Notes: generated from the sequence alone by a model not told the origin. 64,000 bases of DNA from Parcubacteria group bacterium ADurb.Bin159 (GCA_002070355.1 MWDC01000002.1:8814-72813); one strand, 5' to 3'; counted from the first letter of the stretch, positions 647 to 55,329 are shown. Numbers and translations are program-made.

Positions 647-1216
647 ATGACAAAATTTTTTAATTTAATTATTTGCGGTTATGGAGGCCAAGGAGTTTTA
701 ACTTTGGCGGAAATAATTTCTCGCGCTGCTTTGGAAGAAAATTATAAAGTAATGGAATCCGAGTTGCACGGTTTAGCGCAAAGAGGCGGTCCTTTGGATT
801 GCCATATTAGAATGGGAAAAAACCAAGAATTTTTTTCTCCCTTAATCAGGCGAGGGGAAGCGGATTTAATTATTGCTTTGGATTTATTAGAAGCTTGGCG
901 GGCTTGTTATTTCGCTAACAAAAAAAAGACGAAAATTATTAGTAACGAAGAAATAGGTTTTCTTGGTAAATGGCAGGGGACGGACAAAAAACAAATGATT
1001 TCCCAAATTAAAAAAAACAGTCAAGAACAAGAATTTATAGAAGCAACAAAAATAGTTAAAGAAAACGTGGGGATTATTGGGCCTTTAAATATTTTTATGC
1101 TTTCTCAAGCGCTGAAAAAAAATTATCTCCCCTTAAAGAGGGAGACAGTTTGGCGAGTTATTGAAGAAAGATTAAAAGGTAAAAATTTGGAAATTAATAA
1201 AAAAGTTTTTTGTTAG
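647..1216 (+). CDS. iorB: indolepyruvate ferredoxin oxidoreductase beta subunit (POR/OFOR gamma-type catalytic domain)
   Basis: 189 aa. N-terminus ICGYGGQGVLTLAEIISRAAL..GLAQRGGPLDCHIRMG is the typical IorB/PorG fold. It lies 9 nt downstream of iorA. Confidence 0.75.
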   Translation: MTKFFNLIICGYGGQGVLTLAEIISRAALEENYKVMESELHGLAQRGGPLDCHIRMGKNQEFFSPLIRRGEADLIIALDLLEAWRACYFANKKKTKIISNEEIGFLGKWQGTDKKQMISQIKKNSQEQEFIEATKIVKENVGIIGPLNIFMLSQALKKNYLPLKRETVWRVIEERLKGKNLEINKKVFC

Positions 1217-1461
1217 GGTCAGACCCCAAAAACCGACCGCTGATAACCCTTTATTGATGCGGGTTTGCGGGCGATTTTTCAAAAATGGCACGATTTTGAT
1301 CAGAATTTGGAATTTAGAATTTTAAATATAAAATTTATTTTATTTTTATCATTTTTTACATTATTTTAAATTTGGTAAAAAAAGTGTCAAAATTGATTTT
1401 CGGGCGATTTTACCCTTTATTGATGCGGGTTTGCAGAGGTCGGAAAAAGGGGACTGTCCCC
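1216..1461 (-). repeat. modular intergenic repeat element, copy A (~246 bp), an inverted copy of element F at 53985-54222
   Basis: Modules found: M2 palindrome GGGTCAGACCCC (1216-1227); M3 ccctttattgatgcgggttt twice (1247-1266, 1413-1432); M5 aaaaatggcacgattttgat (1281-1300); AT-rich core; M1 palindrome GGGGACTGTCCCC (1449-1461). The reverse complement aligns to copy F over the full length at roughly 85-90% identity. Confidence 0.85.
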
Positions 1462-4629: not shown

Positions 4630-5655
4630 ATGGATATTCTAAATATCAAAAAACAAATAGAAGAAGATATTAGCCGCGTGAGGACATTAAATGATTTAGA
4701 AAATATTTCTAAAAAATATTTAGGCAGAAAAGGCGAGATTACTCGTTTTTTTGATGAAATAAAAAATTTTTCTTCAAAGCAAAGAGCAGAGAAAGGAAGA
4801 GAGGGGAATGAACTTAAAAATTGGTTAATTACCCAAATAGAAAGCAAGAGGCAAATATTTGAAAAGGGAGGAGAAGAGAGTAAATACAAAAAAGATATAG
4901 ACATTACTCAGCCCGGGGAAAAAATAGAAAGGGGTAATTTGTCGCTGATTACCCAGATGAAAAATGAAATAGAAATGTTTTTTCTTTCTATGGGGTTTGA
5001 TATAGCTGAGGGGCCGAATGTGGAAACAGAATTTTATAATTTTGATGCCTTAAATATACCAGAATATCATCCGGCTCGAGATATACAAGATACTTTTTGG
5101 CTGAAAGAAAAGGGAATAAATAAAGAAAAATTACTTTTGCGCACTCACACTTCGCCGGTGCAAATAAGATATATGAGAGAGCATAAGCCGCCGCTGAAAA
5201 TGATAACTATTGGCAATACTTTTAGACATGAAGCCATTGATGCTTCCCATGAAGCGCAATTTTGCCAAATGGAAGGGTTGGCTGTTGATAAAAACATTTC
5301 TTTGGCGAATTTAAAAGATGTGGTGGAAAATTTTTTGCGGCATTTTTTCGGCAAAAAAATGGCTATTCAATGGCGACCAGGTTATTTTCCTTTTGTTGAG
5401 CCGGGAGTAGAAGTGGATATGGAGTGTTTGATGTGTCGCGGAAAAGGATGTCCGGTTTGTAAAAATAGTGGATGGCTGGAAGTAATGGGGGCAGGAATGG
5501 TTCATCCGTATGTTTTAAAAAAAGGAGGTATTGACCCTCATAAATGGCAGGGATTTGCTTTTGGTATAGGCATTGACCGTTTGGTGATGTTAAGACACTG
5601 TATTACTGACATTCGAGTTTTCCGCGGGGGACAGTCCCCAAAGATTGACTTCTGA
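4630..5655 (+). CDS. pheS: phenylalanine--tRNA ligase alpha subunit
   Basis: 341 aa. The class II core motifs FRHEAIDASHEAQFCQMEGL and GAGMVHP are present. The last codons run into repeat element B. Confidence 0.95.
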   Translation: MDILNIKKQIEEDISRVRTLNDLENISKKYLGRKGEITRFFDEIKNFSSKQRAEKGREGNELKNWLITQIESKRQIFEKGGEESKYKKDIDITQPGEKIERGNLSLITQMKNEIEMFFLSMGFDIAEGPNVETEFYNFDALNIPEYHPARDIQDTFWLKEKGINKEKLLLRTHTSPVQIRYMREHKPPLKMITIGNTFRHEAIDASHEAQFCQMEGLAVDKNISLANLKDVVENFLRHFFGKKMAIQWRPGYFPFVEPGVEVDMECLMCRGKGCPVCKNSGWLEVMGAGMVHPYVLKKGGIDPHKWQGFAFGIGIDRLVMLRHCITDIRVFRGGQSPKIDF

Positions 5656-5933
5656 AAATCCGCATAAATAAAGGCGAAACAAGCGAATTTTTAAAATTAG
5701 GGTTGTGGACCCTAAATTTGAAAAATTATTTAAATTGGTCAAAAAATATATTAGTATTAAAGGAACAGTCCCCAAAAAAAGTAAAAAGTTGTTTAAATTG
5801 ATTAAAAAATATAATTTTTATTTTGAATAAACAAAATTCTAAATTTAGGGTTGTGAGCCCTAAATTTGAAAAATGCCTTTGAAACGCAGATGAATAAAGG
5901 CTTTTAGAGGGGCGGAAACAAGGGACTGTCCCC
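5627..5933 (+). repeat. modular intergenic repeat element, copy B (long form with an internal partial duplication)
   Basis: M1 GGGGACAGTCCCC (5627-5639); M3 aaatccgcataaataaaggc (5656-5675); M4 palindrome tagggttgtggaccctaa (5698-5715); half M1 ggaacagtcccc (5762-5773); M4 copy (5846-5863); M3-like cgcagatgaataaaggc (5885-5901); M1 (5922-5933). It is co-linear with copy E. Confidence 0.85.
5789..5815 (+). promoter_or_regulatory. promoter-like TTGTTT-N15-TATAAT embedded in repeat B, facing pheT
   Basis: The same arrangement (TTGCTT-N15-TATAAT) occurs at the equivalent position of repeat E (14772-14798). The 15-nt spacer is shorter than optimal. Confidence 0.35.
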
Positions 5934-5951: not shown

Positions 5952-8339
5952 ATGCTTTTGTCTTATTCGTGGTTAAAAGAATTAACAGGATTTAAATTAA
6001 AGCCAGAAAAACTGGCGGATATTTTGTCTACCCATACAGCAGAAGTAGAGAAAATAATTAAATTAGGACAAGGATTGGATAAAATAGTGGTGGGTGAAAT
6101 AAAAGAAATTAAACCTTTACCCAAATCTAAAAAATTAAGTTTAGCTAAAGTTCAAACAAAAATAAATAAAAAGGTGAAAGAATTGGATATAGTTTGCGGG
6201 GCGGAAAATATTGCCGTGGGGCAAAAAGTTCCCTTAGCCTTAACAGGAGCGAAAATATTAGGCGAGGAGATTAAAGAAGTTTCTATTTTGGGAGTAAAAT
6301 CTCAAGGCATGCTTTGCGCGGAAGACGAATTAGGCATTGGCGAAGATCATAGCGGAATTTATATTTTACCCGAAGAAACAAAAATAGGTGAACCAGTTGC
6401 TAAAGTTTTAGGACTTAATGATTATATATTAGAAATAGAAAATTCATCTCTTACCCATCGGCCGGATTTATTTAATCATTTTGGCTTGGCAAGAGAAATA
6501 ATGGCTTGCTTAGGGCAAATTAAAATTAAAAATTTTTACTTGCCAGCAGGTAAAGAAAATTCAAAATTAAAAGTTCAAAATCCAAAAATAAAACAACTCA
6601 AAATTATTGTTCAGGACAATAAATTATGTCCGCGTTATATGGCAGTAATTATAGACGGAATTAAAATTGTGCCTTCTCCTTTATGGATGCAGAATAGGTT
6701 AAGAAATTGCGGTATTCGGCCGATTAATAATGTAGTGGACATCACTAATTATGTTTTATTGGAATTAGGTCAACCCTTACACGCCTTTGATTTGAATAAT
6801 TTAGAGGGAACGCAAATAATGGTCAGGCCTGCAAAAAAAGGAGAAAAAATTTTAGCTTTGGACGGCAAGGAATATGAATTAGATAAAACAGATTTAATTA
6901 TTGCCGATAAAATAAAACCTGTTGCTTTAGCCGGAATAATGGGAGGAGAATATTCCGGAATATCCGAGAAAACAAAAACCATTGTTATTGAATCAGCCAA
7001 TTTTAACCCTATAAATATTCGTCAATCTTCCAAGCGTTTAGGGATAAGGACAGAATCATCTTTACGTTTTGAAAAGGGTTTGCCATTGAATTTTAGCCAA
7101 GAAGGTCTTTATCGAGCCATTGAATTAGTGAAAAATTTAGCGCAAGGGCAAGTGGTCAGCCAAATTTTTGATATAAAAAGTGAAGAAGCAAAAAGGCGAT
7201 TAACCGGTTCTAAAAAAATTTTTTTGAATTTTGAAAAATTAGAAAGAGTAGCCGGCATAAAATTTTCTACTAAAGAGATATTAAGTATATTAAAATTTTT
7301 AGGGTTTAAAACAAAGGAGCAAAAAAAGGACATTTTAGTTCAAGCGCCGATTTGGCGAAACGATATTAATATCCCCGAAGATATTATTGAAGAGGTTGTC
7401 AGGATTTACGGCATAAATAAAATTAAACCTAAGCCGATAGTAGCAGAGATTAAACCAGTTGCTTTAAGCCCGGAAATGAGTTGGGAAAATAAATTAAAAG
7501 ATATTTTAGCGGGAGCGGGGTTTGATGAAATCTACACTTATATTTTTTATCAAACACCAATAGAAACAAAAGTAGAACATTTAGAATTAGCTAACCCTTT
7601 AAATCCAAGTCAAAGATATTTAAGAATAAGTCTTTTGCCAAATTTAGAGAAAAGTATAGAAAAAAATCAGCGGTTTTTTGAGAAGATAAAAGTTTTCGAA
7701 TTAAGTAATGTCTTTTATAGAAAAGATAATCAAATTGTGGAAAAGAAAAATTTGGCAGGTATAATTTATGGAGAAAAAGAATTATTTTTTAAGGCAAAAG
7801 GAGTAGTAGAAATGATTTGTCGCGCTTGCGGAGTAGGGAGAGAATCATTGAGGTTTGAATTTTTTTCTTCAGACGAGATGAAGGAGTGGATTGATTTAAG
7901 CAAAGATGGTTTAGAGATAGAGATATTAATAGATAATAATATTTTAGGAATATTTGGGGAGAGAAAATTAGAAAAATATAAAATTGGTTTTTTTGAACTT
8001 GATTTTAAAGTTTTGGTAAATTACGCTAAGCAAATTAAAAAGTATGAACCAGCTTCCCGATACGAGCCGGTTAAGAGAGATTTGGCTTTTTTAATAGATA
8101 AAAATATTTCTTGTCAAAAAATAGAAGCGACAATTAAAAGTATTGACCCATTAATAAAAAAAGTAGAATTGTTTGATATTTTTACCAGTGAACGGTTTGG
8201 TGAAAAAAGAAATTTAGCTTTTCATATTATTTATCAAAGCAATGAACGAACTCTTGTTACTGAAGAAGTAGATGTTATTCAGAAAAAAATTATTGATAGT
8301 TTAGAAAAAAATTTTAAAGCCATTCTGCGTGATTTCTAA
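5952..8339 (+). CDS. pheT: phenylalanine--tRNA ligase beta subunit
   Basis: 795 aa. N-terminus MLLSYSWLKELTG is the typical PheT start. It includes the B3/4 and B5 domains and the C-terminal anticodon-binding region, and follows pheS. Confidence 0.95.
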   Translation: MLLSYSWLKELTGFKLKPEKLADILSTHTAEVEKIIKLGQGLDKIVVGEIKEIKPLPKSKKLSLAKVQTKINKKVKELDIVCGAENIAVGQKVPLALTGAKILGEEIKEVSILGVKSQGMLCAEDELGIGEDHSGIYILPEETKIGEPVAKVLGLNDYILEIENSSLTHRPDLFNHFGLAREIMACLGQIKIKNFYLPAGKENSKLKVQNPKIKQLKIIVQDNKLCPRYMAVIIDGIKIVPSPLWMQNRLRNCGIRPINNVVDITNYVLLELGQPLHAFDLNNLEGTQIMVRPAKKGEKILALDGKEYELDKTDLIIADKIKPVALAGIMGGEYSGISEKTKTIVIESANFNPINIRQSSKRLGIRTESSLRFEKGLPLNFSQEGLYRAIELVKNLAQGQVVSQIFDIKSEEAKRRLTGSKKIFLNFEKLERVAGIKFSTKEILSILKFLGFKTKEQKKDILVQAPIWRNDINIPEDIIEEVVRIYGINKIKPKPIVAEIKPVALSPEMSWENKLKDILAGAGFDEIYTYIFYQTPIETKVEHLELANPLNPSQRYLRISLLPNLEKSIEKNQRFFEKIKVFELSNVFYRKDNQIVEKKNLAGIIYGEKELFFKAKGVVEMICRACGVGRESLRFEFFSSDEMKEWIDLSKDGLEIEILIDNNILGIFGERKLEKYKIGFFELDFKVLVNYAKQIKKYEPASRYEPVKRDLAFLIDKNISCQKIEATIKSIDPLIKKVELFDIFTSERFGEKRNLAFHIIYQSNERTLVTEEVDVIQKKIIDSLEKNFKAILRDF

Positions 8340-8340
8340 T

Positions 8341-8353
8341 GGGGACTGTCCCC
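8341..8353. repeat. solo M1 palindrome GGGGACTGTCCCC immediately after the pheT stop
   Basis: This 13-mer terminates or begins repeat elements A, B, E and F. It is followed by atatccaca (8361-8369), which matches the DnaA-box consensus at 8 of 9 positions. Confidence 0.7.
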
Positions 8354-8378
8354 AAAAAATATATCCACATAATTTAAT

Positions 8379-11868: not shown

Positions 11869-11973
11869 ATGGGGTCTCCGCTTAAATGGGGTCAGACCCC
11901 CAAAACCAACCTCCGGAAAGCCGCATAAATAAAAGGATATCTTTCAAATTTTTAAAAATGGCACGATTTTGAT
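11863..11973 (+). repeat. modular intergenic repeat, copy D (partial: tandem 14-mer, M2, M3, M5)
   Basis: gcttaaatggggtc occurs twice (11863-11876, 11880-11893). M2 GGGGTCAGACCCCC (11888-11901); M3 ccgcataaataaaagg (11921-11936) in the opposite orientation relative to M2/M5 compared with copy A; M5 aaaaatggcacgattttgat (11954-11973). Confidence 0.75.
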
Positions 11974-11994
11974 TAAAATGATTAAAAAGACATC

Positions 11995-13785: not shown

Positions 13786-14727
13786 TTGATATATTTTATG
13801 TTTTCCATTGTTTCAAAAAGAAAAATTTTTTTTAGCATATCAGCGGTTGTTTGTTTAGCGGCAATTTTATGTTTGATTATTTGCCCCCTGAAATTAGGTA
13901 TTGATTTTACTGGTGGAGCAATGATTGAATTGTCCTTTGAAGAAAGGCCGTCAATAGAACAAATTAAAGAAAAGCTCAATTCTTTTAATTTAGGAGAAGT
14001 AAAAATCAGTCAAACAGGAGAGAATGGTTATCTTTTAAGATTTAAAGAAATTGACGAGCAAACTCACCAAGAAATTCTTAAAGTATTAACCGGCGCTAAA
14101 GAGGAAAGATATGAAATTGTTGGGCCGACTATTGGGCAAGAAGTAAAAACAAAAGCGAAAACAGCGATTATTTTGTCAGTTATTCTTATATTTGTTTATA
14201 TTGTTTGGGCTTTTCGTAAAATATCACGTTTTTTTGGCAGGCAGGAATCATGGCGTTATGGAGCAGGAGCAATTTTAGCCTTAGTTCATGATATGTTGAT
14301 TATGTGTGGATTTTTTGCTTTGCTCGGTTTTTTGAAGGGAACAGAAGTGGACACGCTTTTTATTAGCGCCTTATTAACGATTTTAGGATATTCAGTCAAT
14401 GATACTATTGTTATTTATGACCGCATTAGGGAAAACACCCTTCTCTACGGCAGAGATAATTTTGAAGAGGTGGTTAATCTTTCTTTAAACGAATCTTTAG
14501 TTCGTTCTTTAAATACTTCTTTAACTACTCTTTTAGTGGTTTTGACCATTGCTTTATTTACTGGTTCAAGTACTCAAATATTTGCTTTAGCTTTAGCTGT
14601 GGGTATTATATCCGGTACTTGGTCTACTATTGCCATTGCTACACCCTTTGTCCTTTTGGGCCACACCAAAAAGGGGACAGTCCCCAAAAGTCGACCTTCG
14701 CAAACCCGCATAAACATTGGCTTTTAG
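13786..14727 (+). CDS. secF: protein translocase subunit SecF
   Basis: LGIDFTGG motif with an RND-like TM region. The last ~15 codons (GTVPKSRPSQTRINIGF) run into repeat E. Confidence 0.9.
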   Translation: MIYFMFSIVSKRKIFFSISAVVCLAAILCLIICPLKLGIDFTGGAMIELSFEERPSIEQIKEKLNSFNLGEVKISQTGENGYLLRFKEIDEQTHQEILKVLTGAKEERYEIVGPTIGQEVKTKAKTAIILSVILIFVYIVWAFRKISRFFGRQESWRYGAGAILALVHDMLIMCGFFALLGFLKGTEVDTLFISALLTILGYSVNDTIVIYDRIRENTLLYGRDNFEEVVNLSLNESLVRSLNTSLTTLLVVLTIALFTGSSTQIFALALAVGIISGTWSTIAIATPFVLLGHTKKGTVPKSRPSQTRINIGF

Positions 14728-14918
14728 GACGAATTTTAAAAATTAGGGCTGTGAACCCTAAATTTGCAAAATTGCTTAAATTGGTCAAAAAATATAATTT
14801 TTATTTTAAATAAACAAAATTCTGAAAATTAGGGTTGTGAACCCTAATTTTGAAAAAATGCCTTTGAAACGCAGATGAATAAAGGCTTTTGGAGGGGCGG
14901 AAACGGGGGACTGTCCCC
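14673..14918 (+). repeat. modular intergenic repeat element, copy E (canonical long form)
   Basis: M1 (14673-14685); M3 variant aaacccgcataaacattggc (14702-14721); M4 tagggctgtgaaccctaa (14744-14761); promoter-like TTGCTT-N15-TATAAT (14772-14798); M4 (14830-14847); cgcagatgaataaaggc (14870-14886); M1 (14905-14918). It is co-linear with copy B. Confidence 0.85.
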
Positions 14919-38078: not shown

Positions 38079-38153
38079 TGGTCGGGGTAGCCGGACTTGA
38101 ACCGGCGACCTCATCGTCCCGAACGATGCGCGCTACCACTGCGCTATACCCCG
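38079..38153 (-). tRNA. tRNA-Pro (anticodon CGG), with CCA encoded
   Basis: The reverse complement reads CGGGGTA-TA-GCGC-AGTGGTA-GCGC-G-CATCG-TTCGGGA-CGATG-AGGTC-GCCGG-TTCAAGT-CCGGC-TACCCCG-A-CCA. This is a canonical cloverleaf with a 7-bp acceptor stem and TTCGGGA anticodon loop. Two ORF-track entries (37933-38190 and 38097-38462) overlap it and are spurious. Confidence 0.9.
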
Positions 38154-40575: not shown

Positions 40576-41802
40576 ATGGCGTTTTTTAGGACAATTAAAA
40601 ATATTAAAAATCTTTACGGGAAACGAGTTTTAATGCGCGTTGATTTTAATTTTACCCTAAAAGACGGAAAACCCATAGATAGTTTTCGTTTAAAAGCCAT
40701 ATTTCCTACTTTAGAATTTTTAAAACCATTTAGAACAAAACTAATTTTAATCAGTCATTTTGGCGAACCCAAGGGAAAATTTGATAAAAAATATAGTTTA
40801 GAGCCTATAGCTAAATGGCTATTAAACCAAGATAAAATTTTTCAAAACTTAAAATTTATTGTCAATCCGTTTGAGAAAGAGGGGAGAGAAGCAATCCAAA
40901 ATTTGAAAGAAGGAGATATTGCTCTTTTAGAAAATATCCGCTTCTGGAAAGGAGAAGAAGAAAATAATCCAAAATTTGCGCAAAAATTAGCTAATTTTGG
41001 GGATATTTATATTAACGAAGCATTTTCTGTTTCTCATCGAGCACATTCTTCTATAACGGGATTACCTAAAATTTTACCCAGTTACGCTGGGATAAATTTT
41101 GAAAATGAAGTTAATAATTTAAATCAAGTTTTAAAAAAATATCATCATCCTTTTACTCTTATTTTAGGAGGAGCAAAAATTAGCACTAAACTTGGTTTGC
41201 TTTTAAATTTTAAGAACAAAGCAAATTTTATTCTTATTGGCGGCGCTATGGCTAACACTTTTTTAAAAGCAAAGGGATCCAATATAGGCAATTCTTTAAT
41301 AGAAGAAACAATGCTTTCAAAAGCCAAAGAAATTCTAAAACAAAAAAATTTGATTTTACCTAATGATGTGATGATAAAAATGAGAAATAAAAAAATACGA
41401 ATTATAGATATTGACAAATTAAACGATTTAAAGCATAATGATTTTAAGATATTGGATATTGGCCCGAAAACGATAAAAAAATTTTCTGATATTATTAAAA
41501 CATCTAAAGAAATAATTTGGAATGGACCATTAGGTTATTTTGAGGAGAAACCCTTTACTCAAGGAACGGTAAAAATAATTCAAAGTATTTTGTCTAATAA
41601 AAAGGCGAGAATAACTATTGGTGGGGGAGAAACCATAGTTTGCCTTGGACAGGCAAAGGTTAAACGTCCGATGCCAAATGCCGAAAATAAAATATTCGTT
41701 TCTACTGGAGGAGGGGCGATGCTTGAATTTTTAAGCGGGAAAGAATTACCCGGTTTAATCGCCTTGACAAAAAATAAGGATTTGGTAAATTTAAATAAAT
41801 AA
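40576..41802 (+). CDS. pgk: phosphoglycerate kinase
   Basis: 408 aa. N-terminus VLMRVDFNFTLKDGKPID, the hinge, and C-terminal nucleotide-binding GGGETIV / GGGAMLEFL motifs. Confidence 0.9.
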   Translation: MAFFRTIKNIKNLYGKRVLMRVDFNFTLKDGKPIDSFRLKAIFPTLEFLKPFRTKLILISHFGEPKGKFDKKYSLEPIAKWLLNQDKIFQNLKFIVNPFEKEGREAIQNLKEGDIALLENIRFWKGEEENNPKFAQKLANFGDIYINEAFSVSHRAHSSITGLPKILPSYAGINFENEVNNLNQVLKKYHHPFTLILGGAKISTKLGLLLNFKNKANFILIGGAMANTFLKAKGSNIGNSLIEETMLSKAKEILKQKNLILPNDVMIKMRNKKIRIIDIDKLNDLKHNDFKILDIGPKTIKKFSDIIKTSKEIIWNGPLGYFEEKPFTQGTVKIIQSILSNKKARITIGGGETIVCLGQAKVKRPMPNAENKIFVSTGGGAMLEFLSGKELPGLIALTKNKDLVNLNK

Positions 41803-41814
41803 AATAATTTAGCC

Positions 41815-41901
41815 GAAGAAAGTAGGGGATTATAACAATCTTAAAAATCCTATTGAGGCAAAACATTAGACCTACTTTCTTCTTTATACTGTAGGTTTTT
41901 T
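41815..41901 (+). terminator. pgk 3' structure: a perfect 12-bp inverted repeat gaagaaagtagg/cctactttcttc (41815-41826 and 41871-41882), plus an alternative cctac..gtagg + T6 hairpin (41871-41901)
   Basis: There are two mutually exclusive pairings for the cctac segment. The T-run is followed by tatataat (41901-41908), a -10-like box. Confidence 0.45.
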
Positions 41902-41944
41902 ATATAATTAAAAAATAAATTTTACCTTTACTAAACAGAAATTT

Positions 41945-50042: not shown

Positions 50043-51434
50043 ATGACAGAAGAAAAAAATAATAAAATAGAAGAAATAAATAAAGAAGAACTTTGGCAAA
50101 GTGTTTTGGGTGAATTAGAAGTTTCTATTTCTCCGGCAAATTTCAAAACCTGGTTTTCTAATACTTTTATTTTACGATTTGAAAATAATGGAGAAACGGT
50201 TGTTATCGGTGTGCCCAATGTTTTTACTGAGCAATGGTTAAGTCAAAAATACCATAAAGCGATATTAGATGCCTTTCAAAACATAACCGATAATAAAATA
50301 AAAGAGATTGTTTATACTATTAAAGCCGCTCTTCCTCCTCAAGAAAGATTTTTGGATAATTTAATAAAAATAAAAGCAAATGATAATGAAGGAACTTTTA
50401 AAACAGATAAACACGGGCTTAATCCTCGTTATACTTTCGAAAATTTTATTGTGGGAAAGGGCAACGAATTAGCCCATGCCGCTGCTATAGCAGTAAGTAA
50501 ACAACCAGGGAAAAAATATAATCCGCTTTTTATTTACGGGGGAGTGGGATTAGGTAAAACTCATCTTCTTCAAGCGATAGGGCATCGTGTTCTAGCTAAA
50601 AATCCTAAAACTAAAGTTCGTTATGTTAATGCCGAGGTTTTTACAAATGAATTTATTGAAGGCATTAGAACTGGTCAAAATGATAATTTTAAAAATAAGT
50701 ATCGTCAACTTGATTTTCTTTTAGTTGATGATATTCAATTTATGGCAGGGAAAGAGAGGACAGAAGAAGAATTTTTTCACACTTTTGATTGGCTTCATCA
50801 AGGAGGCAAACAAATAGTTATTACTTCTGATAGGCCCCCGAAATCTTTACCTGCTCTAGAAAAGAGGATTATTTCCCGATTTGAATGGGGATTAATTTGC
50901 GATATTACTCCTCCTGATTTTGAAACACGTTTGGCTATTTTAAAAACAAAATCAAAAGAAAAGGGATATAAATTAGAAGATGATGTTTTAAATTATTTAG
51001 CTAGTCATATACAAAATAATGTAAGAGAATTGGAAGGAGCGTTGAATAAAATTTTTGCTTGGCATGAATTAAAAGGAGGGCCGATTAATCTTGATGTAGT
51101 AGAAAAAATTATAAAAAGTTTGAATCAAATACAAAAAGGGTCTGTTAAAAGTGATAAAATAATTCAAGAAGTATCAGAGTTTTATAATTTGACGCCTCTT
51201 GATTTGAAAAGCGCTTCTCGAAAAAAAGAATTAGTGATGTCAAGGCAAATAGCTATGTATTTATTAAGAGAAGATTTAAACTTATCTTTTCCTGCTATTG
51301 GAAAAATTATAGGGGGGCGCGATCATTCTACCACTATGCATGGATGGGAAAAGGTAAAAAAAGAAGTTGAAGAAGGGGGAGAAACAAAACAAGATATTGA
51401 TTCTATCAGACAAAGAATTTATACTCATAAATAA
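50043..51434 (+). CDS. dnaA: chromosomal replication initiator DnaA
   Basis: AAA+ Walker A GGVGLGKTHLLQAIG, Walker B LLVDDIQF, and a C-terminal DnaA-box binding HTH (SRQIAMYLLRE..IGKIIGGRDHSTTMH). Confidence 0.95.
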   Translation: MTEEKNNKIEEINKEELWQSVLGELEVSISPANFKTWFSNTFILRFENNGETVVIGVPNVFTEQWLSQKYHKAILDAFQNITDNKIKEIVYTIKAALPPQERFLDNLIKIKANDNEGTFKTDKHGLNPRYTFENFIVGKGNELAHAAAIAVSKQPGKKYNPLFIYGGVGLGKTHLLQAIGHRVLAKNPKTKVRYVNAEVFTNEFIEGIRTGQNDNFKNKYRQLDFLLVDDIQFMAGKERTEEEFFHTFDWLHQGGKQIVITSDRPPKSLPALEKRIISRFEWGLICDITPPDFETRLAILKTKSKEKGYKLEDDVLNYLASHIQNNVRELEGALNKIFAWHELKGGPINLDVVEKIIKSLNQIQKGSVKSDKIIQEVSEFYNLTPLDLKSASRKKELVMSRQIAMYLLREDLNLSFPAIGKIIGGRDHSTTMHGWEKVKKEVEEGGETKQDIDSIRQRIYTHK

Positions 51435-52312: not shown

Positions 52313-53983
52313 ATGCCTCAAAACAACACATCTCCCACTTCCGAAGAAATGGAAAAAAAATTAAAAGATAAACTTAGCGGTCTTGCTTTAGAAAAGGAAG
52401 AAGAAAACGCTAGAAATATGGCTTACAGCTTAGGATTAGATTATATTAATTTATATAACTTTCCTATTGCCCCGGAAGCCTTAAGGTTAATTTCCGAAGA
52501 AGAGGCGAGACAATTTAATACTGTTTGTTTTTGGTTGGGAGAGAAAGAGGCGAAATTAGCTACAACCTTAATAGAAAAATCAAAAATAAGAGAATTCCAA
52601 AAAATTTTTGAAGAAAGGGCGGGGGTATCTACTCGTCTTTTTTTTGTTTCTCAAAATAGTTTAAAATATGCTCTTGATTTTTATAAAACGCTTCCCAAAA
52701 TTTATCAGCCATCTAAGGGGGTTCAAATTACTTCTGTTGATTTAGCACGTTTTGAAGATAAAATAAAAACCTTTAAGGATTTAAACGAAGAGATAAAAAA
52801 TGTTTCTATTTCAGATATCGTAACCTTAATTGTTGCTTCAGCTATTAATTCCCGCGCTTCAGATATTCATATAGAAGCAGAAGAAAAGGAAATTAAAGTT
52901 CGATTTAGAGTTGATGGAGTTTTAGTGGATGTAGCTGATATAGATAAAGATTTATGGAAAAGTATTATTTCGCGTATAAAATTACTCTCCGCTCTTAAAA
53001 TTAACATTAATGACCAACCCCAAGATGGCCGTTTTACCATAAATTTGCCGAACGATAAAGTAGATGTAAGGGTTTCTACTTTGCCGACGGCATTTGGAGA
53101 AAGCGTAGTAATGAGGTTGCTTCGTTCTTCTTCTGTTGGTTTGCAATTTGAAGATTTAGGTTTAATAGACAGGGCGTTTGACATACTATCCCGGGCAATT
53201 AAGAGGCCGAATGGTATGATTATTACCACTGGTCCGACTGGTTCAGGGAAAACGACTACTCTTTACGCTATTTTAAATAAAATTAATCGGCCAGAAATAA
53301 AAATTCTTACTTTAGAAGACCCTATTGAATATCACTTAGAAGGAATTAATCAAAGTCAAGTAGATAAAGAAAAAGATTATACTTTTGCTAAAGGCCTTCG
53401 CTCACTTATGCGGCAAGATCCTGATGTAATAATGATTGGAGAAATTAGGGACGGGGAAACAGCAGAAATAGCTATTCAAGCAGCTTTAACCGGCCATTTA
53501 GTTATTTCCACTCTTCATACTAATGACGCCGCTGGAGCAATTCCCAGATTTATTGCTTTAGGAGCAAAACCATTTCTTTTAGCCCCGGCTTTAAATGTGA
53601 TTATTGCTCAAAGATTAGTTCGCCGAATTTGCCCTGAATGCAAGAAAGAAACAAAATTATCTCCTGACCTTCTCAAAAGAGTTTCTGCTGATTTGAATAA
53701 AATTCCGCAGAAAAACAATCTTTCTTTAGAAAAACTTAAATTTTATAAAGGAGAGGGATGTTCTCATTGTCAAGGATTAGGATATCATGGCCGTATCGGT
53801 ATTTATGAGGTTTTAGAAATTACTTCAGAAGCTGAAAAGATTATCAACGAAGGAGATGTTTCTGAATATAAAATAAAAGAATTCGCCGCCAGCCAAGGGA
53901 TGGTTCCTATGGTGGGCGATGGTTTATTAAAAGCCATTAATGGAATTACTACTGTAGACGAAGTATATCGTGTCATCGAATAA
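52313..53983 (+). CDS. type II secretion / type IV pilus assembly ATPase (GspE/PilB family)
   Basis: Walker A GPTGSGKTTT, Asp/His boxes, Walker B DPDVIMIGEIRD, and the tetracysteine CPECKK..CSHCQGLGY. Confidence 0.9.
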   Translation: MPQNNTSPTSEEMEKKLKDKLSGLALEKEEENARNMAYSLGLDYINLYNFPIAPEALRLISEEEARQFNTVCFWLGEKEAKLATTLIEKSKIREFQKIFEERAGVSTRLFFVSQNSLKYALDFYKTLPKIYQPSKGVQITSVDLARFEDKIKTFKDLNEEIKNVSISDIVTLIVASAINSRASDIHIEAEEKEIKVRFRVDGVLVDVADIDKDLWKSIISRIKLLSALKININDQPQDGRFTINLPNDKVDVRVSTLPTAFGESVVMRLLRSSSVGLQFEDLGLIDRAFDILSRAIKRPNGMIITTGPTGSGKTTTLYAILNKINRPEIKILTLEDPIEYHLEGINQSQVDKEKDYTFAKGLRSLMRQDPDVIMIGEIRDGETAEIAIQAALTGHLVISTLHTNDAAGAIPRFIALGAKPFLLAPALNVIIAQRLVRRICPECKKETKLSPDLLKRVSADLNKIPQKNNLSLEKLKFYKGEGCSHCQGLGYHGRIGIYEVLEITSEAEKIINEGDVSEYKIKEFAASQGMVPMVGDGLLKAINGITTVDEVYRVIE

Positions 53984-53984
53984 A

Positions 53985-54222
53985 GGGGACAGTCCCCTTT
54001 TTCTGCCTCTCGCAAACCCGCATCAATAAAGGCTTATCTCGCGAGAAAATCAAATTTGACACTTTTTTTACCTTTTTAAAATAATAATAAAAATAAATTA
54101 AATTTTATATTCCATATTCCAAATTCTAAATTCTGATCAAAATCGTGCCATTTTTGAAAAATCGCCTGGAAATCCGCATCAATAAAGGGCTTCCTGCGGT
54201 CGGTTTTTGGGGTCTGACCCCC
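53985..54222 (+). repeat. modular intergenic repeat element, copy F (~238 bp), inverted partner of copy A
   Basis: M1 (53985-53997) starts 1 nt after the gspE stop. M3 aaacccgcatcaataaagg (54014-54032); TTGACA-N15-TAAAAT (54056-54082); AT-rich core; M5 in reverse complement (54136-54155); M3 (54170-54189); M2 GGGGTCTGACCCCC (54209-54222). Confidence 0.85.
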
Positions 54223-54255: not shown

Positions 54256-55329
54256 ATGGAAAAATTATTCCAAAAACAAACAAAAGAGAGGATGAAAAAC
54301 TCCTCTTTATTTATAGTTATTCCTTGCCATAATGGTAGAAAATATATTAAAGATTTAATTTATTCGCTTAATCAAGGCGAAGTAAAACCAAATTCAATAA
54401 TTATTATAGATAATGGCTCAACTGACGGCACTGCGGATCTAATTCAACAAGAATTTCCCGAAGTTAGATTATTCTCTTATAAAGAAAGCCTTGGTTATGC
54501 CAAGGCATCTAATTTAGGAATAAAAAAAGCTTTAGAAGATGGGCCGGATTATATTTTTCTTCTTAATCAAGATATAATTTGCAAAAAAGACACTATAAAA
54601 AATTTGATTGATTTTGCCGAAATCCATCAAAATTTTTTTATTCTCTCTCCCTTAATTCTTTGTTGGCCTGAAAAAGATTTAATACAAACTTCGGGAGATA
54701 TGATGCATTTTTTAGGTTTTGGCTATTCAGGCAATTATAAATTGCCTTTATCCGAATTTAAATTAAAACCATTTACTTATGCTTCAGGCGCGGCAATGTT
54801 TTTCAACGCTCAAAAATTAAAAAAAATTGGTTTTTTTGATGAAGATTTTGTTATGTATCACGAAGATGCAGATTTGTGTTTAAGGGCGCAATTAAAAAAA
54901 GAAAAATATTTACTTGTTCCCCAAGCGCAACTTTATCATCGTTATAAAGAAGAAATTAGCGATTTTCGCTGGTTTTGGTCGGAAAGAAATAGAATTTTAA
55001 CTTTGATAAAATTTTATAAATTACCCACTTTACTTCTTATTGCTCCCTTATTTAAGTTTATGGAATTAGGGGTTCTTGGTTTTAGCTTATTCGATGGCTG
55101 GTTAAACCTTAAAATAAAAAGCTATCAGGACATTTATAAATTGCTTCCTAAAATATTAAAAAAGAGAAAAATTATTCAAAAAGAACGGAAAATATCAGAT
55201 AAAGAATTTTTAAAATATTTTGTAGCTACTTTTCATTTTGAAGGATTTACTCATCCTTTGCTTAAATACATAGTAAATCCTATTTTTGGTTTTGCCTGGA
55301 AAATTCTTTATTCTTGTGTATTTTGGTAA
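54256..55329 (+). CDS. family 2 glycosyltransferase
   Basis: LFIVIPCHNGRKYI..IIIIDNGSTDGT and a DxD-containing region EDADLCLRA. Confidence 0.8.
   Translation: MEKLFQKQTKERMKNSSLFIVIPCHNGRKYIKDLIYSLNQGEVKPNSIIIIDNGSTDGTADLIQQEFPEVRLFSYKESLGYAKASNLGIKKALEDGPDYIFLLNQDIICKKDTIKNLIDFAEIHQNFFILSPLILCWPEKDLIQTSGDMMHFLGFGYSGNYKLPLSEFKLKPFTYASGAAMFFNAQKLKKIGFFDEDFVMYHEDADLCLRAQLKKEKYLLVPQAQLYHRYKEEISDFRWFWSERNRILTLIKFYKLPTLLLIAPLFKFMELGVLGFSLFDGWLNLKIKSYQDIYKLLPKILKKRKIIQKERKISDKEFLKYFVATFHFEGFTHPLLKYIVNPIFGFAWKILYSCVFW

What the first reader, a model, noticed from the sequence alone, without database searches (positions are those of the whole stretch)
1216..1461. Elements A and F are ~250-bp inverted copies bracketing 52.7 kb
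The reverse complement of 1216-1461 aligns end-to-end with 53985-54222. The module order is the same, the AT-rich core is conserved, and identity is about 85-90% by eye. The two copies therefore form a large inverted repeat pair spanning most of the window. Such a pair could mediate inversion by homologous recombination. Alternatively they are simply two members of a dispersed family. The inner boundary of A abuts convergent gene ends (iorB and valS), while F separates co-directional genes.
Basis: seen in the sequence. Interest (0 to 1): 0.55.

Follow-up and report, generated by a model that had tools for sequence, protein, structure and literature searches.

The report
REP-like repeats with their own transposase
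The two inverted 240-bp copies are real, but they are just two of at least 21 sites of a repeat family scattered through this tiny Parcubacteria genome, which also encodes the transposase-like enzyme (RAYT) that such repeats depend on, and no assembly shows the 52-kb segment between them inverted.

Summary
Observation confirmed: rc(1215-1461) aligns end to end with 53985-54221 (82.6% identity counting gaps, 86.1% ungapped, longest identical run 39 nt).

The pairing is not special. The window holds six family sites (A-F).

Twelve independent assemblies span A or F. All are collinear with the window and none shows the inverted junction.

The family is a REP/RAYT system. Each arm has three parts:
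- a 13-nt palindrome, GGGG(A/T)C(A/T)G(A/T)CCCC;
- a lineage-specific stem-loop followed by a U-run;
- a TGGCACGATTTTG box about 68 nt from the hairpin.

The same genome encodes a 202-aa HUH/Y1 transposase whose best structural match is E. coli TnpA-REP (4ER8). It is flanked by these arms in inverted orientation, and so are its homologues in three other Patescibacteria lineages. A and F look like that unit with the gene deleted.

The arms sit at or inside gene ends (the valS tail is element-encoded). They carry terminator-like hairpins and one σ70-like promoter.

It differs from classical REPs: there is no GTAG head, the arms are about 90 nt, and the host is a CPR bacterium.

The parts
1215..1461 (-). 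Element A: full-length two-armed, RAYT-less doublet. In unit orientation (T-arm to P-arm) it reads on the minus strand.
   Evidence: The boundaries are sharp across 9 copies with unrelated flanks.
1215..1300 (+). A, P-arm. Hairpin AGGGTCAGACCCC at 1215-1227 (overlaps the POR stop codon TAG at 1214-1216); CCGACC; stem-loop with loop motif CCTTTATTGATGCGG at 1248-1262; U-run; P box AAAAATGGCACGATTTTGAT at 1281-1300.
   Evidence: Same class as the 3' arm of the RAYT unit.
1363..1461 (-). A, T-arm. Hairpin GGGGACAGTCCCC plus TTTTT (1461-1449 on the minus strand); R motif at 1428-1414; σ70-like promoter TTGACA-16-TAAAAT at 1390-1363, firing into the core. The last 17 codons and the stop of the valS ORF (stop at 1410-1412) are read from this arm.
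53985..54221 (+). Element F: full-length doublet in unit orientation on the plus strand. Hairpin at 53985-53997, 1 nt after the pilB stop, followed by TTTTT; R at 54018-54032; TTGACA promoter from about 54056; P box (rc) at 54136-54155; R at 54174-54188; hairpin at 54209-54221; GT2 gene starts at 54256.
   Evidence: Four contigs break inside it.
5627..5933 (+). Element B: second subtype, with inner hairpins TTAGGGTTGTGRRCCCTAA in place of P. It fills the pheS-pheT spacer, and the pheS stop (5653-5655) lies inside the left arm.
8341..8353 (.). Element C: solitary terminal-type hairpin GGGGACTGTCCCC, 1 nt after the pheT stop.
11888..11975 (+). Element D: solitary P-arm (hairpin, R in the opposite orientation to A-left, U-run, P box). 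It differs at only 2 positions from the 5' arm of the genome's RAYT gene.
14673..14918 (+). Element E: B-type doublet. The secF ORF stop (14725-14727) lies inside the left arm, and the next gene starts 13 nt after the right hairpin.

Best explanation
A and F are two copies of a non-autonomous REP/BIME/REPIN-like repeat belonging to a REP-RAYT system of a Parcubacteria (CPR) genome.

The ancestral unit is a RAYT gene, a single-strand-DNA HUH/Y1 transposase. It is bracketed by two arms of about 90 nt in inverted orientation. Each arm has three parts:
- an outermost 13-nt palindromic hairpin;
- a lineage-specific stem-loop framed by an A-tract and a U-tract;
- a TGGCACGATTTTG box.

A and F are that unit with the gene replaced by a short AT-rich core. 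Solo arms (D), solo hairpins (C) and a second subtype (B, E) are further derivatives.

Shown: the repeat family, its copy number, the RAYT gene in the same genome, and its flanking by the same arms.

Inferred: the RAYT copies the arms through a strand-specific single-stranded intermediate. The stem-loop's loop motif reads the same way in both arms of every unit, as in IS200/IS605 ends. Also inferred: once inserted, the arms act on transcription. The hairpin plus U-run would work as a terminator or an mRNA 3'-end protector directly after stop codons, and the T-arm supplies a TTGACA-16-TAAAAT promoter.

The inverted A/F arrangement across 52.5 kb is incidental.
For: Family and copy number:
- The hairpin occurs 10 times in the window against 0.03 expected.
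- There are 6 sites in the window, 6 in L196 and 9 in L207, giving 21 sites and 27 hairpins in about 96 kb of one MAG.
- Nine full-length copies have unrelated flanks and sharp ends.
- Assemblies break inside A and F.

Same-genome links:
- L138's PNPase is 100% identical to P0241 on GCA_022705795.1 contig 010.
- The window's PilB and GT2 are on contig 006.
- The RAYT P0383 is on contig 009.
- NCBI names all of them Parcubacteria ADurb.Bin159.

RAYT identity:
- Pfam Y1_Tnp 57 bits; NCBIfam REP_Tyr_transpos 75.4 bits against 20.9 for IS200.
- PDB 4ER8 by sequence.
- The AlphaFold model (pLDDT 86.8) has 4ER8 as its best fold match, E = 1.2e-9, ahead of IS608, ISDra2 and IS200 at about 2e-5.
- HUH (H62, H64) is invariant and Y121 is at least 90% conserved across 46 homologues.

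Flanking by inverted arms: seen in L078/L207, L177, L223 and L225. D differs from the RAYT 5' arm at 2 positions.

Unbiased arm architecture: extra hairpins in distant CPR loci also carry the P core about 68 nt away. The fifth pair of the hairpin covaries.

Gene-end effects:
- ValS lacks the 60-75 aa C-terminal domain of its homologues and ends in an element-encoded tail.
- Hairpin plus U-run folds at -10 to -12 kcal/mol.
- Promoter found.
Against: - No filled-versus-empty site polymorphism was found, so mobility is not demonstrated.
- No target-site duplication or conserved cleavage motif is visible at the ends.
- The hairpin lacks the GT(A/G)G head of classical REPs and is only 13 nt.
- The RAYT scores just below the NCBIfam curated cut-off (75.4 against 80).
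- The middle stem-loop has no common consensus structure, and only 5 of 14 individual folds reach z <= -2.
- The strand bias of the loop motif (11 to 2 in the source genome, p = 0.02) is contradicted by three copies on related contigs.
- No transcript data exist for the terminator and promoter roles.
Confidence: 0.8

Rival explanations
1. A and F are the boundaries of a functional or recurrent 52.5-kb chromosomal inversion, produced by homologous or site-specific recombination between the inverted copies.
For: The copies are inverted and share identical runs of 39 and 25 nt, long enough in principle for RecA-dependent exchange. Two short contigs (L217, L219) carry the POR flank but leave the A sequence inside the repeat.
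Against: - Five assemblies across A (L117, L182, L215, L221, L222) and seven across F (NCBI MAG, L185, L186, L188, L190, L191, L194) are all collinear at 98.6% identity or better, and none has a POR-pilB or valS-GT2 junction.
- A and F are among the least similar pairs in the family.
- At least 19 other family sites exist in about 96 kb of the same genome, so this pair is not singled out.
- The window encodes no recombinase.
- L217 and L219 end inside the repeat and match no inverted flank, so they may be assembly chimeras.
Confidence: 0.03
2. The elements are not mobile. They are conserved regulatory cassettes (terminator plus promoter, or small-RNA genes) that spread by duplication and are kept for their function.
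For: - Hairpins start 0-1 nt after stop codons in A-left, C, F and the L196 copy.
- T-arm hairpin plus U5 and the A-tract/stem/U-tract look like terminators.
- The core holds a TTGACA-16-TAAAAT promoter, which faces the downstream gene in F, L196, L108 and L169.
- The hairpin and P box are conserved across distant CPR lineages.
Against: - In A, L076, L125 and L150 the promoter faces the 3' end of the upstream gene.
- Both arms are conserved while the putatively transcribed core is the most variable part.
- The arms replace gene 3' ends (valS).
- The same arms bracket a transposase gene.
- There is no Rfam match and no consensus RNA structure beyond the terminal hairpin.
- Secondary use as terminators or promoters is compatible with the main explanation.
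Confidence: 0.1
3. The elements are classical MITEs: terminal-inverted-repeat elements moved by a DDE transposase of an unseen insertion sequence.
For: Small size, no coding capacity, many copies, inverted terminal hairpins plus CCGACC, and an AT-rich variable core.
Against: - No target-site duplication in 9 copies.
- The inner loop motif is in direct, not inverted, orientation in the two arms.
- No DDE transposase lies near any copy (and the gene tables).
- The only enzyme bracketed by the arms is a Y1/HUH protein.
Confidence: 0.05

Closest known systems
REP / BIME / REPIN elements with RAYT (TnpA-REP) of Gammaproteobacteria (E. coli yafM and BIMEs; Pseudomonas REPINs; Stenotrophomonas REPs)
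   Same: - A Y1/HUH transposase-like gene is flanked by two copies of the repeat in inverted orientation.
- The same repeat is dispersed in extragenic space at high density, often as inverted doublets and mosaic combinations.
- Copies lie directly after gene ends.
- The gene sits at one fixed locus in all assemblies seen.
- The best structural match of the enzyme is 4ER8.
Criteria taken from PMC2817692 and PMC5581495.
   Different: - No GT(A/G)G head.
- The conserved hairpin is a 13-nt near-perfect palindrome rather than a 20-40-nt imperfect one.
- Each arm is about 90 nt and tripartite (hairpin, lineage-specific stem-loop, TGGCACGATTTTG box).
- The doublet spacer is about 80-210 nt and carries a promoter.
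- The host is a streamlined CPR/Patescibacteria genome.
- The protein is about 200 aa and scores just below the NCBIfam RAYT cut-off.
IS200/IS605 family and its gene-less derivatives (PATEs)
   Same: - The enzyme has the same fold and the HUH plus Tyr chemistry.
- No terminal inverted repeats in the strict sense and no target duplications.
- Subterminal hairpins present the same loop on one strand at both ends.
- A and F look like an internally deleted unit.
   Different: - The enzyme matches the RAYT model far better than the IS200 model (75 against 21 bits) and matches 4ER8 better than IS608 or ISDra2.
- The gene is at a single fixed locus rather than in multiple copies.
- No tnpB partner.
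- A conserved flanking target is only hinted at (TTAATT in 6 of 9 copies).
Correia elements (Neisseria), BOX and RUP (Streptococcus pneumoniae), ERIC
   Same: Short modular intergenic repeats that carry promoters and terminator-like hairpins, insert between or at the ends of genes, and can alter the transcription of neighbours.
   Different: Those elements have true terminal inverted repeats and (for Correia and RUP) TA duplications linked to DDE-type transposition. None is bracketing a Y1 transposase.

Membership tests
REP/RAYT system (REP, BIME, REPIN) | A RAYT-type Y1/HUH transposase gene in the same genome | tested here: met
   P0383 lies on GCA_022705795.1 contig 009, and the window's genes lie on contig 006 of the same MAG. 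Pfam Y1_Tnp 57 bits; NCBIfam REP_Tyr_transpos 75.4 bits (cut-off 80, so just below) against 20.9 for IS200. Best fold match 4ER8, E = 1.2e-9.
REP/RAYT system (REP, BIME, REPIN) | The RAYT ORF is flanked by two copies of the repeat in inverted orientation | tested here: met
   In L207 the hairpins are at 6888 and 7684 around ORF 6997-7605. The same arrangement is seen in L177, L223 and L225.
REP/RAYT system (REP, BIME, REPIN) | The same repeat is dispersed at high copy number in extragenic space | tested here: met
   21 sites and 27 hairpins in about 96 kb of the same MAG, all intergenic or at gene ends. D differs from the RAYT 5' arm at 2 positions.
REP/RAYT system (REP, BIME, REPIN) | The REP is a 20-40-nt imperfect palindrome with a GT(A/G)G (or CGTC) head | tested here: not met
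   The conserved hairpin is a 13-nt near-perfect palindrome, and no conserved tetranucleotide lies outside it. The 27-40-nt lineage-specific stem-loop inside the arm is REP-like in size but also has no GTAG.
REP/RAYT system (REP, BIME, REPIN) | Inverted doublets that behave as the replicating unit (REPIN) | tested here: inconclusive
   A, B, E, F and the L196 copy are inverted doublets that are conserved as whole units. The spacer is long, however, and solo arms are equally common.
REP/RAYT system (REP, BIME, REPIN) | The RAYT is present as a single copy at a fixed locus | tested here: inconclusive
   All 8 assemblies place it between a 108-aa ORF and secA. tblastn finds no second copy in the DNA held. 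The whole genome was not available.
REP/RAYT system (REP, BIME, REPIN) | The enzyme binds and cleaves the repeat; copies are gained or lost | not testable with these tools
   No filled-versus-empty polymorphism appeared among the held contigs. Biochemistry is required.
MITE (TIR element moved by a DDE transposase) | Target-site duplication and a cognate insertion sequence with the same termini | tested here: not met
   No duplication in 9 copies. No DDE transposase near any copy.
IS200/IS605-derived PATE | Cognate IS200-type TnpA; insertion 3' of a fixed tetra- or pentanucleotide | tested here: inconclusive
   The enzyme fits RAYT better than IS200. TTAATT abuts the P-arm hairpin in 6 of 9 copies but could be part of the element. 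The loop motif lies on the same strand in both arms.
Programmed or recurrent invertible segment | Both orientations are present in the population | tested here: not met
   12 independent assemblies across A or F are all collinear.
Any curated RNA family (Rfam 15) | A covariance-model match | tested here: not met
   No hit at gathering score or at E <= 5 in the element regions, apart from a meaningless 20-bit MIR7533 match.

The most novel reading that the evidence does not exclude
Patescibacteria carry a phylum-wide, largely vertically kept REP-RAYT partnership of a new architecture: a 13-nt palindrome, a lineage-specific stem-loop and a TGGCACGATTTTG box about 68 nt away. The hairpin co-varies with the enzyme lineage (GGGGAC against GGTGAC). 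The arms occupy roughly 3% of an ultra-small genome and have become its standard gene-end terminators and occasional promoters. On this reading a domesticated single-strand transposase shapes transcription-unit boundaries in streamlined genomes.
Probability: 0.4. Interest if true: 0.55.

Novelty: new variant of a known kind. Interest (0 to 1): 0.35.

Why it matters
The finding as stated is ordinary. The inverted pair is a chance arrangement of two copies of an abundant repeat, and no inversion is seen.

The family behind it has some value. REP/RAYT systems have been characterised mainly in Proteobacteria, and I found no paper linking them to CPR bacteria. Here a roughly 1-Mb-class streamlined genome tolerates about one family site per 4.6 kb. 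These sites rewrite gene 3' ends (valS lost its C-terminal domain), split the pheS-pheT pair, and supply hairpins and promoters at gene boundaries.

Practical consequences:
- These repeats break short-read assemblies of such MAGs.
- They can cause wrong stop-codon calls in annotation.
- They offer markers for strain typing.

Tried and rejected
- **Rfam**, at gathering and permissive thresholds: nothing.
- **Consensus RNA structure of the arm:** only the terminal hairpin and a weak A/U stem in P are shared, so a structured-RNA gene was rejected.
- **σ54 promoter reading of TGGCACGATTTTG:** compared with the consensus recalled from memory, the spacer is 1 nt short and the -12 GC is missing. I could not establish whether CPR have RpoN (one search was uninformative). 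Left as unexplained.
- **P as a σ70 -35 element:** no -10 box at a fixed distance across lineages.
- **Mini-ORF ATG-GCA-CGA-TTT-TGA in P:** not pursued, because the conservation is at the nucleotide level.
- **Viral contigs:** only chance matches inside coding sequence.
- **GTDB genome scan:** mostly chance hits, with three real CPR loci.
- **Target-site duplications:** none.
- **Empty-site search by all-against-all BLAST:** only about 100-N scaffold gaps and unrelated marine contigs.
- **Transposase or recombinase in the window or beside copies:** none. The tyrosine recombinase next to one copy in L196 merely has its 3' end overlapped by an arm.
- **L217 and L219 as inversion junctions:** they end inside the repeat and match no inverted flank.
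- **DNA-uptake-sequence idea:** copy density is too low and the RAYT link explains the data better.

Full report
**1. The observation.**
The reverse complement of 1216-1461 aligns end to end with 53985-54222. BLAST gives 85.4% over 247 columns with E = 1e-75. Pairwise MAFFT gives 82.6% when gaps count, 86.1% over ungapped columns, and a longest identical run of 39 nt. The gene context is as described. A POR-family gene (647-1216, +) and valS (minus strand) converge on A. F lies between a pilB-like ATPase (52313-53983) and a GT2 glycosyltransferase (54256-55329), both on the plus strand.

**2. It is a family, not a pair.**
The terminal motif GGGGWCWGWCCCC occurs 10 times in the window against 0.03 expected. 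These hits mark six intergenic sites:
- A (1215-1461), a two-armed element;
- B (5627-5933, between pheS and pheT), a two-armed element of a second subtype;
- C (8341-8353), a lone hairpin;
- D (11888-11975), a lone arm;
- E (14673-14918), a two-armed element of the B subtype;
- F (53985-54221), a two-armed element.

A metagenome scan with the inner 18-mer returned many further copies. Nine full-length A/F-type copies have unrelated flanks and sharp common ends: (TTAATT)GGGGTCAGACCCC on one side and GGGGACTGTCCCC(TTT) on the other. They show no target-site duplication, and the AT-rich core is the most variable part.

**3. The extra copies are in the same genome.**
The window's PilB and GT2 proteins are encoded on contig JAKJDU010000006.1 of NCBI MAG GCA_022705795.1. 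Contig L138 carries a full-length copy. Its PNPase is 100% identical to P0241, which is encoded on contig 010 of that same MAG. NCBI names these proteins "Parcubacteria group bacterium ADurb.Bin159". The 14 kb of contig 010 that I hold has six family sites, and the 17.6 kb of contig 009 has nine. With the window that makes 21 sites and 27 hairpins in about 96 kb.

**4. No inversion.**
Five independent assemblies span A: L117, L182, L215, L221 and L222. Seven span F: the NCBI MAG, L185, L186, L188, L190, L191 and L194. All are collinear with the window at 98.6-100% identity. Several contigs simply stop inside A or F, as expected for a multi-copy repeat. Two short contigs, L217 and L219, carry the POR flank and then leave the A sequence inside the repeat. 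L219 switches to another family variant, and L217's tail matches nothing I hold. Both end within the repeat, so they cannot be told apart from assembly chimeras. Recombination between A and F is possible in principle given the 39-nt identical run, but nothing indicates it happens.

**5. Anatomy of an arm.**
Reading inward, every arm has three parts:
- a 13-nt palindrome;
- about 55 nt that fold into one stem-loop framed by an A-tract and a U-tract (5 of 14 folds have z <= -2);
- a box whose core is TGGCACGATTTTG.

The loop of the stem-loop is the motif CCGCATMAATAAAGG. The 18-mer I scanned with is conserved by construction. However, additional hairpins in distant CPR loci that were not selected through it also carry the core at about 68 nt, in two variants: AAAATGGCACGATTTTGAT and AATTTGGCACGATTTTGTTCAAAAT. 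Across 21 diverse arms only two structures are shared: the terminal hairpin, whose fifth pair covaries as A-U, U-A or C-G, and a weak AAAAU-GGCACG-AUUUU stem. One peculiarity stands out. In every two-armed element the hairpins are inverted, yet the loop motif reads in the same direction in both arms.

**6. The enzyme.**
In L177, a distant CPR contig, two arms face each other across a 201-aa ORF. That ORF matches Pfam Y1_Tnp, NCBIfam "REP-associated tyrosine transposase" and PDB 4ER8. A 54%-identical homologue sits in L078, with a D-type arm directly upstream and an inverted A-left-type arm directly downstream. An identical protein (P0383, OQB43996.1) is encoded on contig 009 of the same MAG as the window. 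In all eight assemblies it lies between a 108-aa ORF and secA.

Its scores are:
- 75.4 bits on the RAYT model (curated cut-off 80), against 20.9 on the IS200 model;
- 57 bits on Y1_Tnp;
- a hit to 4ER8 by sequence.

An AlphaFold model built from 46 homologues (pLDDT 86.8) has E. coli TnpA-REP (4ER8) as its best fold match. That match has E = 1.2e-9 and TM 0.73 over 155 columns, ahead of the IS608, ISDra2 and IS200 transposases at about 2e-5. The HUH histidines are invariant and the predicted catalytic tyrosine (Y121) is at least 90% conserved. There are 220 homologues at E <= 1e-10, almost all about 200 aa, and several are labelled RayT or Patescibacteria transposase by their sources. Two further homologues on long contigs are likewise bracketed by inverted hairpins. 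In L223 the hairpin is a variant, GGTGACNGTCACC, and the box varies too.

**7. Interpretation.**
These features satisfy the core definition of a REP/RAYT system. Nunvar et al. [quoted passage not shown] Bertels et al. 2017 (PMC5581495) describe RAYTs as single-copy genes associated with REPINs. All arm classes of the window align in register with the two RAYT-flanking arms. D differs from the 5' arm at two positions, and A-left and F-right belong to the 3'-arm class. The T-arm of A and F has TTGACAC where the other arms have TGGCAC, which creates a TTGACA-16-TAAAAT promoter. A and F therefore look like the RAYT unit with the ORF deleted. That step is inference.

The same-strand orientation of the loop motif in both arms is what a strand-specific single-strand-DNA enzyme of the IS200/IS605 type would produce. 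That is also inference. Within the source genome the strand carrying the loop motif agrees with the coding strand of the neighbouring genes at 11 sites against 2 (p = 0.02). Three copies on related contigs lie the other way, so I treat the bias as suggestive only.

**8. Effects on the host.**
Hairpins start 0-1 nt after stop codons at A-left, C, F and the contig-010 copy. The ORFs of valS, pheS and secF run into arms and stop there. The window's ValS ends "…WPKS-IAKGTVPFFRPLQTRINKG*", a tail read through the hairpin and loop motif. It lacks the 60-75 C-terminal residues present in homologues of 65-69% identity. The T-arm hairpin with its flanking A- and U-runs folds at -10 to -12 kcal/mol, so it could plausibly act as a small terminator. 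The internal promoter faces a downstream gene in four copies and an upstream gene's 3' end in four others. Any regulatory use is therefore opportunistic.

**9. What is different, and what is unknown.**
The hairpin has no GT(A/G)G head and is much shorter than classical REPs. The arms are long and tripartite. The host is a CPR bacterium, for which I found no REP/RAYT literature. I found no filled-versus-empty sites, so mobility is inferred rather than shown. The role of the TGGCACGATTTTG box is unexplained. It resembles the σ54 -24/-12 consensus as I recall it, but with a spacer 1 nt short and no -12 GC.

**10. Verdict.**
The "dispersed family" reading is right, and the inversion reading has no support. 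The family itself is a new variant of the REP/RAYT kind in Patescibacteria.

Noticed in passing
window 1410-1461 (valS 3' end); alignment A2: ValS lacks the 60-75-residue C-terminal domain present in its 65-69% identical homologues. It ends in 17 codons read from element A's arm. Strain variant L182 has 18 extra bases (6 aa, ISRSQL) at the junction, bounded by an AATTGACT direct repeat.
   Followed up: partly
window 5751-5813 inside element B: Compared with E, element B has a 63-nt insertion that contains a half hairpin (ACAGTCCCCAAAAAAA). It is bordered by 22-nt direct repeats, TTTAAATTGGTCAAAAAATATA and TTTAAATTGATTAAAAAATATA. B also separates pheS from pheT by 297 nt.
   Followed up: no
window 11871-11887 (left edge of D): A 17-bp tandem duplication (GCTTAAATGGGGTC repeated, with TCC between the copies) lies at the hairpin edge. 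It is absent from the 99%-identical contig L178.
   Followed up: partly
L217 1728-1823 and L219 1141-1362: Two short contigs carry the POR flank of A but diverge from A inside the repeat. L219 continues as a different family variant, 94-95% identical to several copies. L217 continues into unmatched sequence after the P box. These could be gene conversion, rearrangement or assembly chimeras.
   Followed up: partly
P box, e.g. window 1285-1300, 11958-11973, 54136-54151: The conserved core TGGCACGATTTTG resembles the σ54 -24/-12 consensus with a spacer 1 nt short. It also contains the mini-ORF ATG GCA CGA TTT TGA and can form an AAAAU-GGCACG-AUUUU stem. Its function is unknown.
   Followed up: partly
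window, L196 and L207 (all family sites): The strand carrying the loop motif GCATnAATAAA matches the coding strand of the neighbouring genes at 11 sites against 2 (p = 0.02). Copies on related contigs L076, L125 and L150 are opposite.
   Followed up: partly
window 15000-53900: Family sites are unevenly spread. Five of the six lie in the first 15 kb, and none lies in the next 39 kb, which holds the mraZ-ftsZ division cluster, gyrB, ribosomal protein genes and dnaA.
   Followed up: no
window 50043-51434 and 8361-8369: dnaA lies inside the A-F interval, yet GC skew stays positive on both sides of it. A DnaA-box-like ATATCCACA sits just after hairpin C.
   Followed up: no
window 38079-38153 and 41795-41911: tRNA-Pro (CGG) on the minus strand, and a ribosomal protein L10 leader (Rfam RF00557, 51 bits) upstream of the L10/L12 genes.
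   Followed up: no
L196 82-1104: A XerC/D-like tyrosine recombinase gene has its 3' end overlapped by a T-arm (R motif at 79, hairpin at 114). This is another gene whose end is read from a repeat arm.
   Followed up: no
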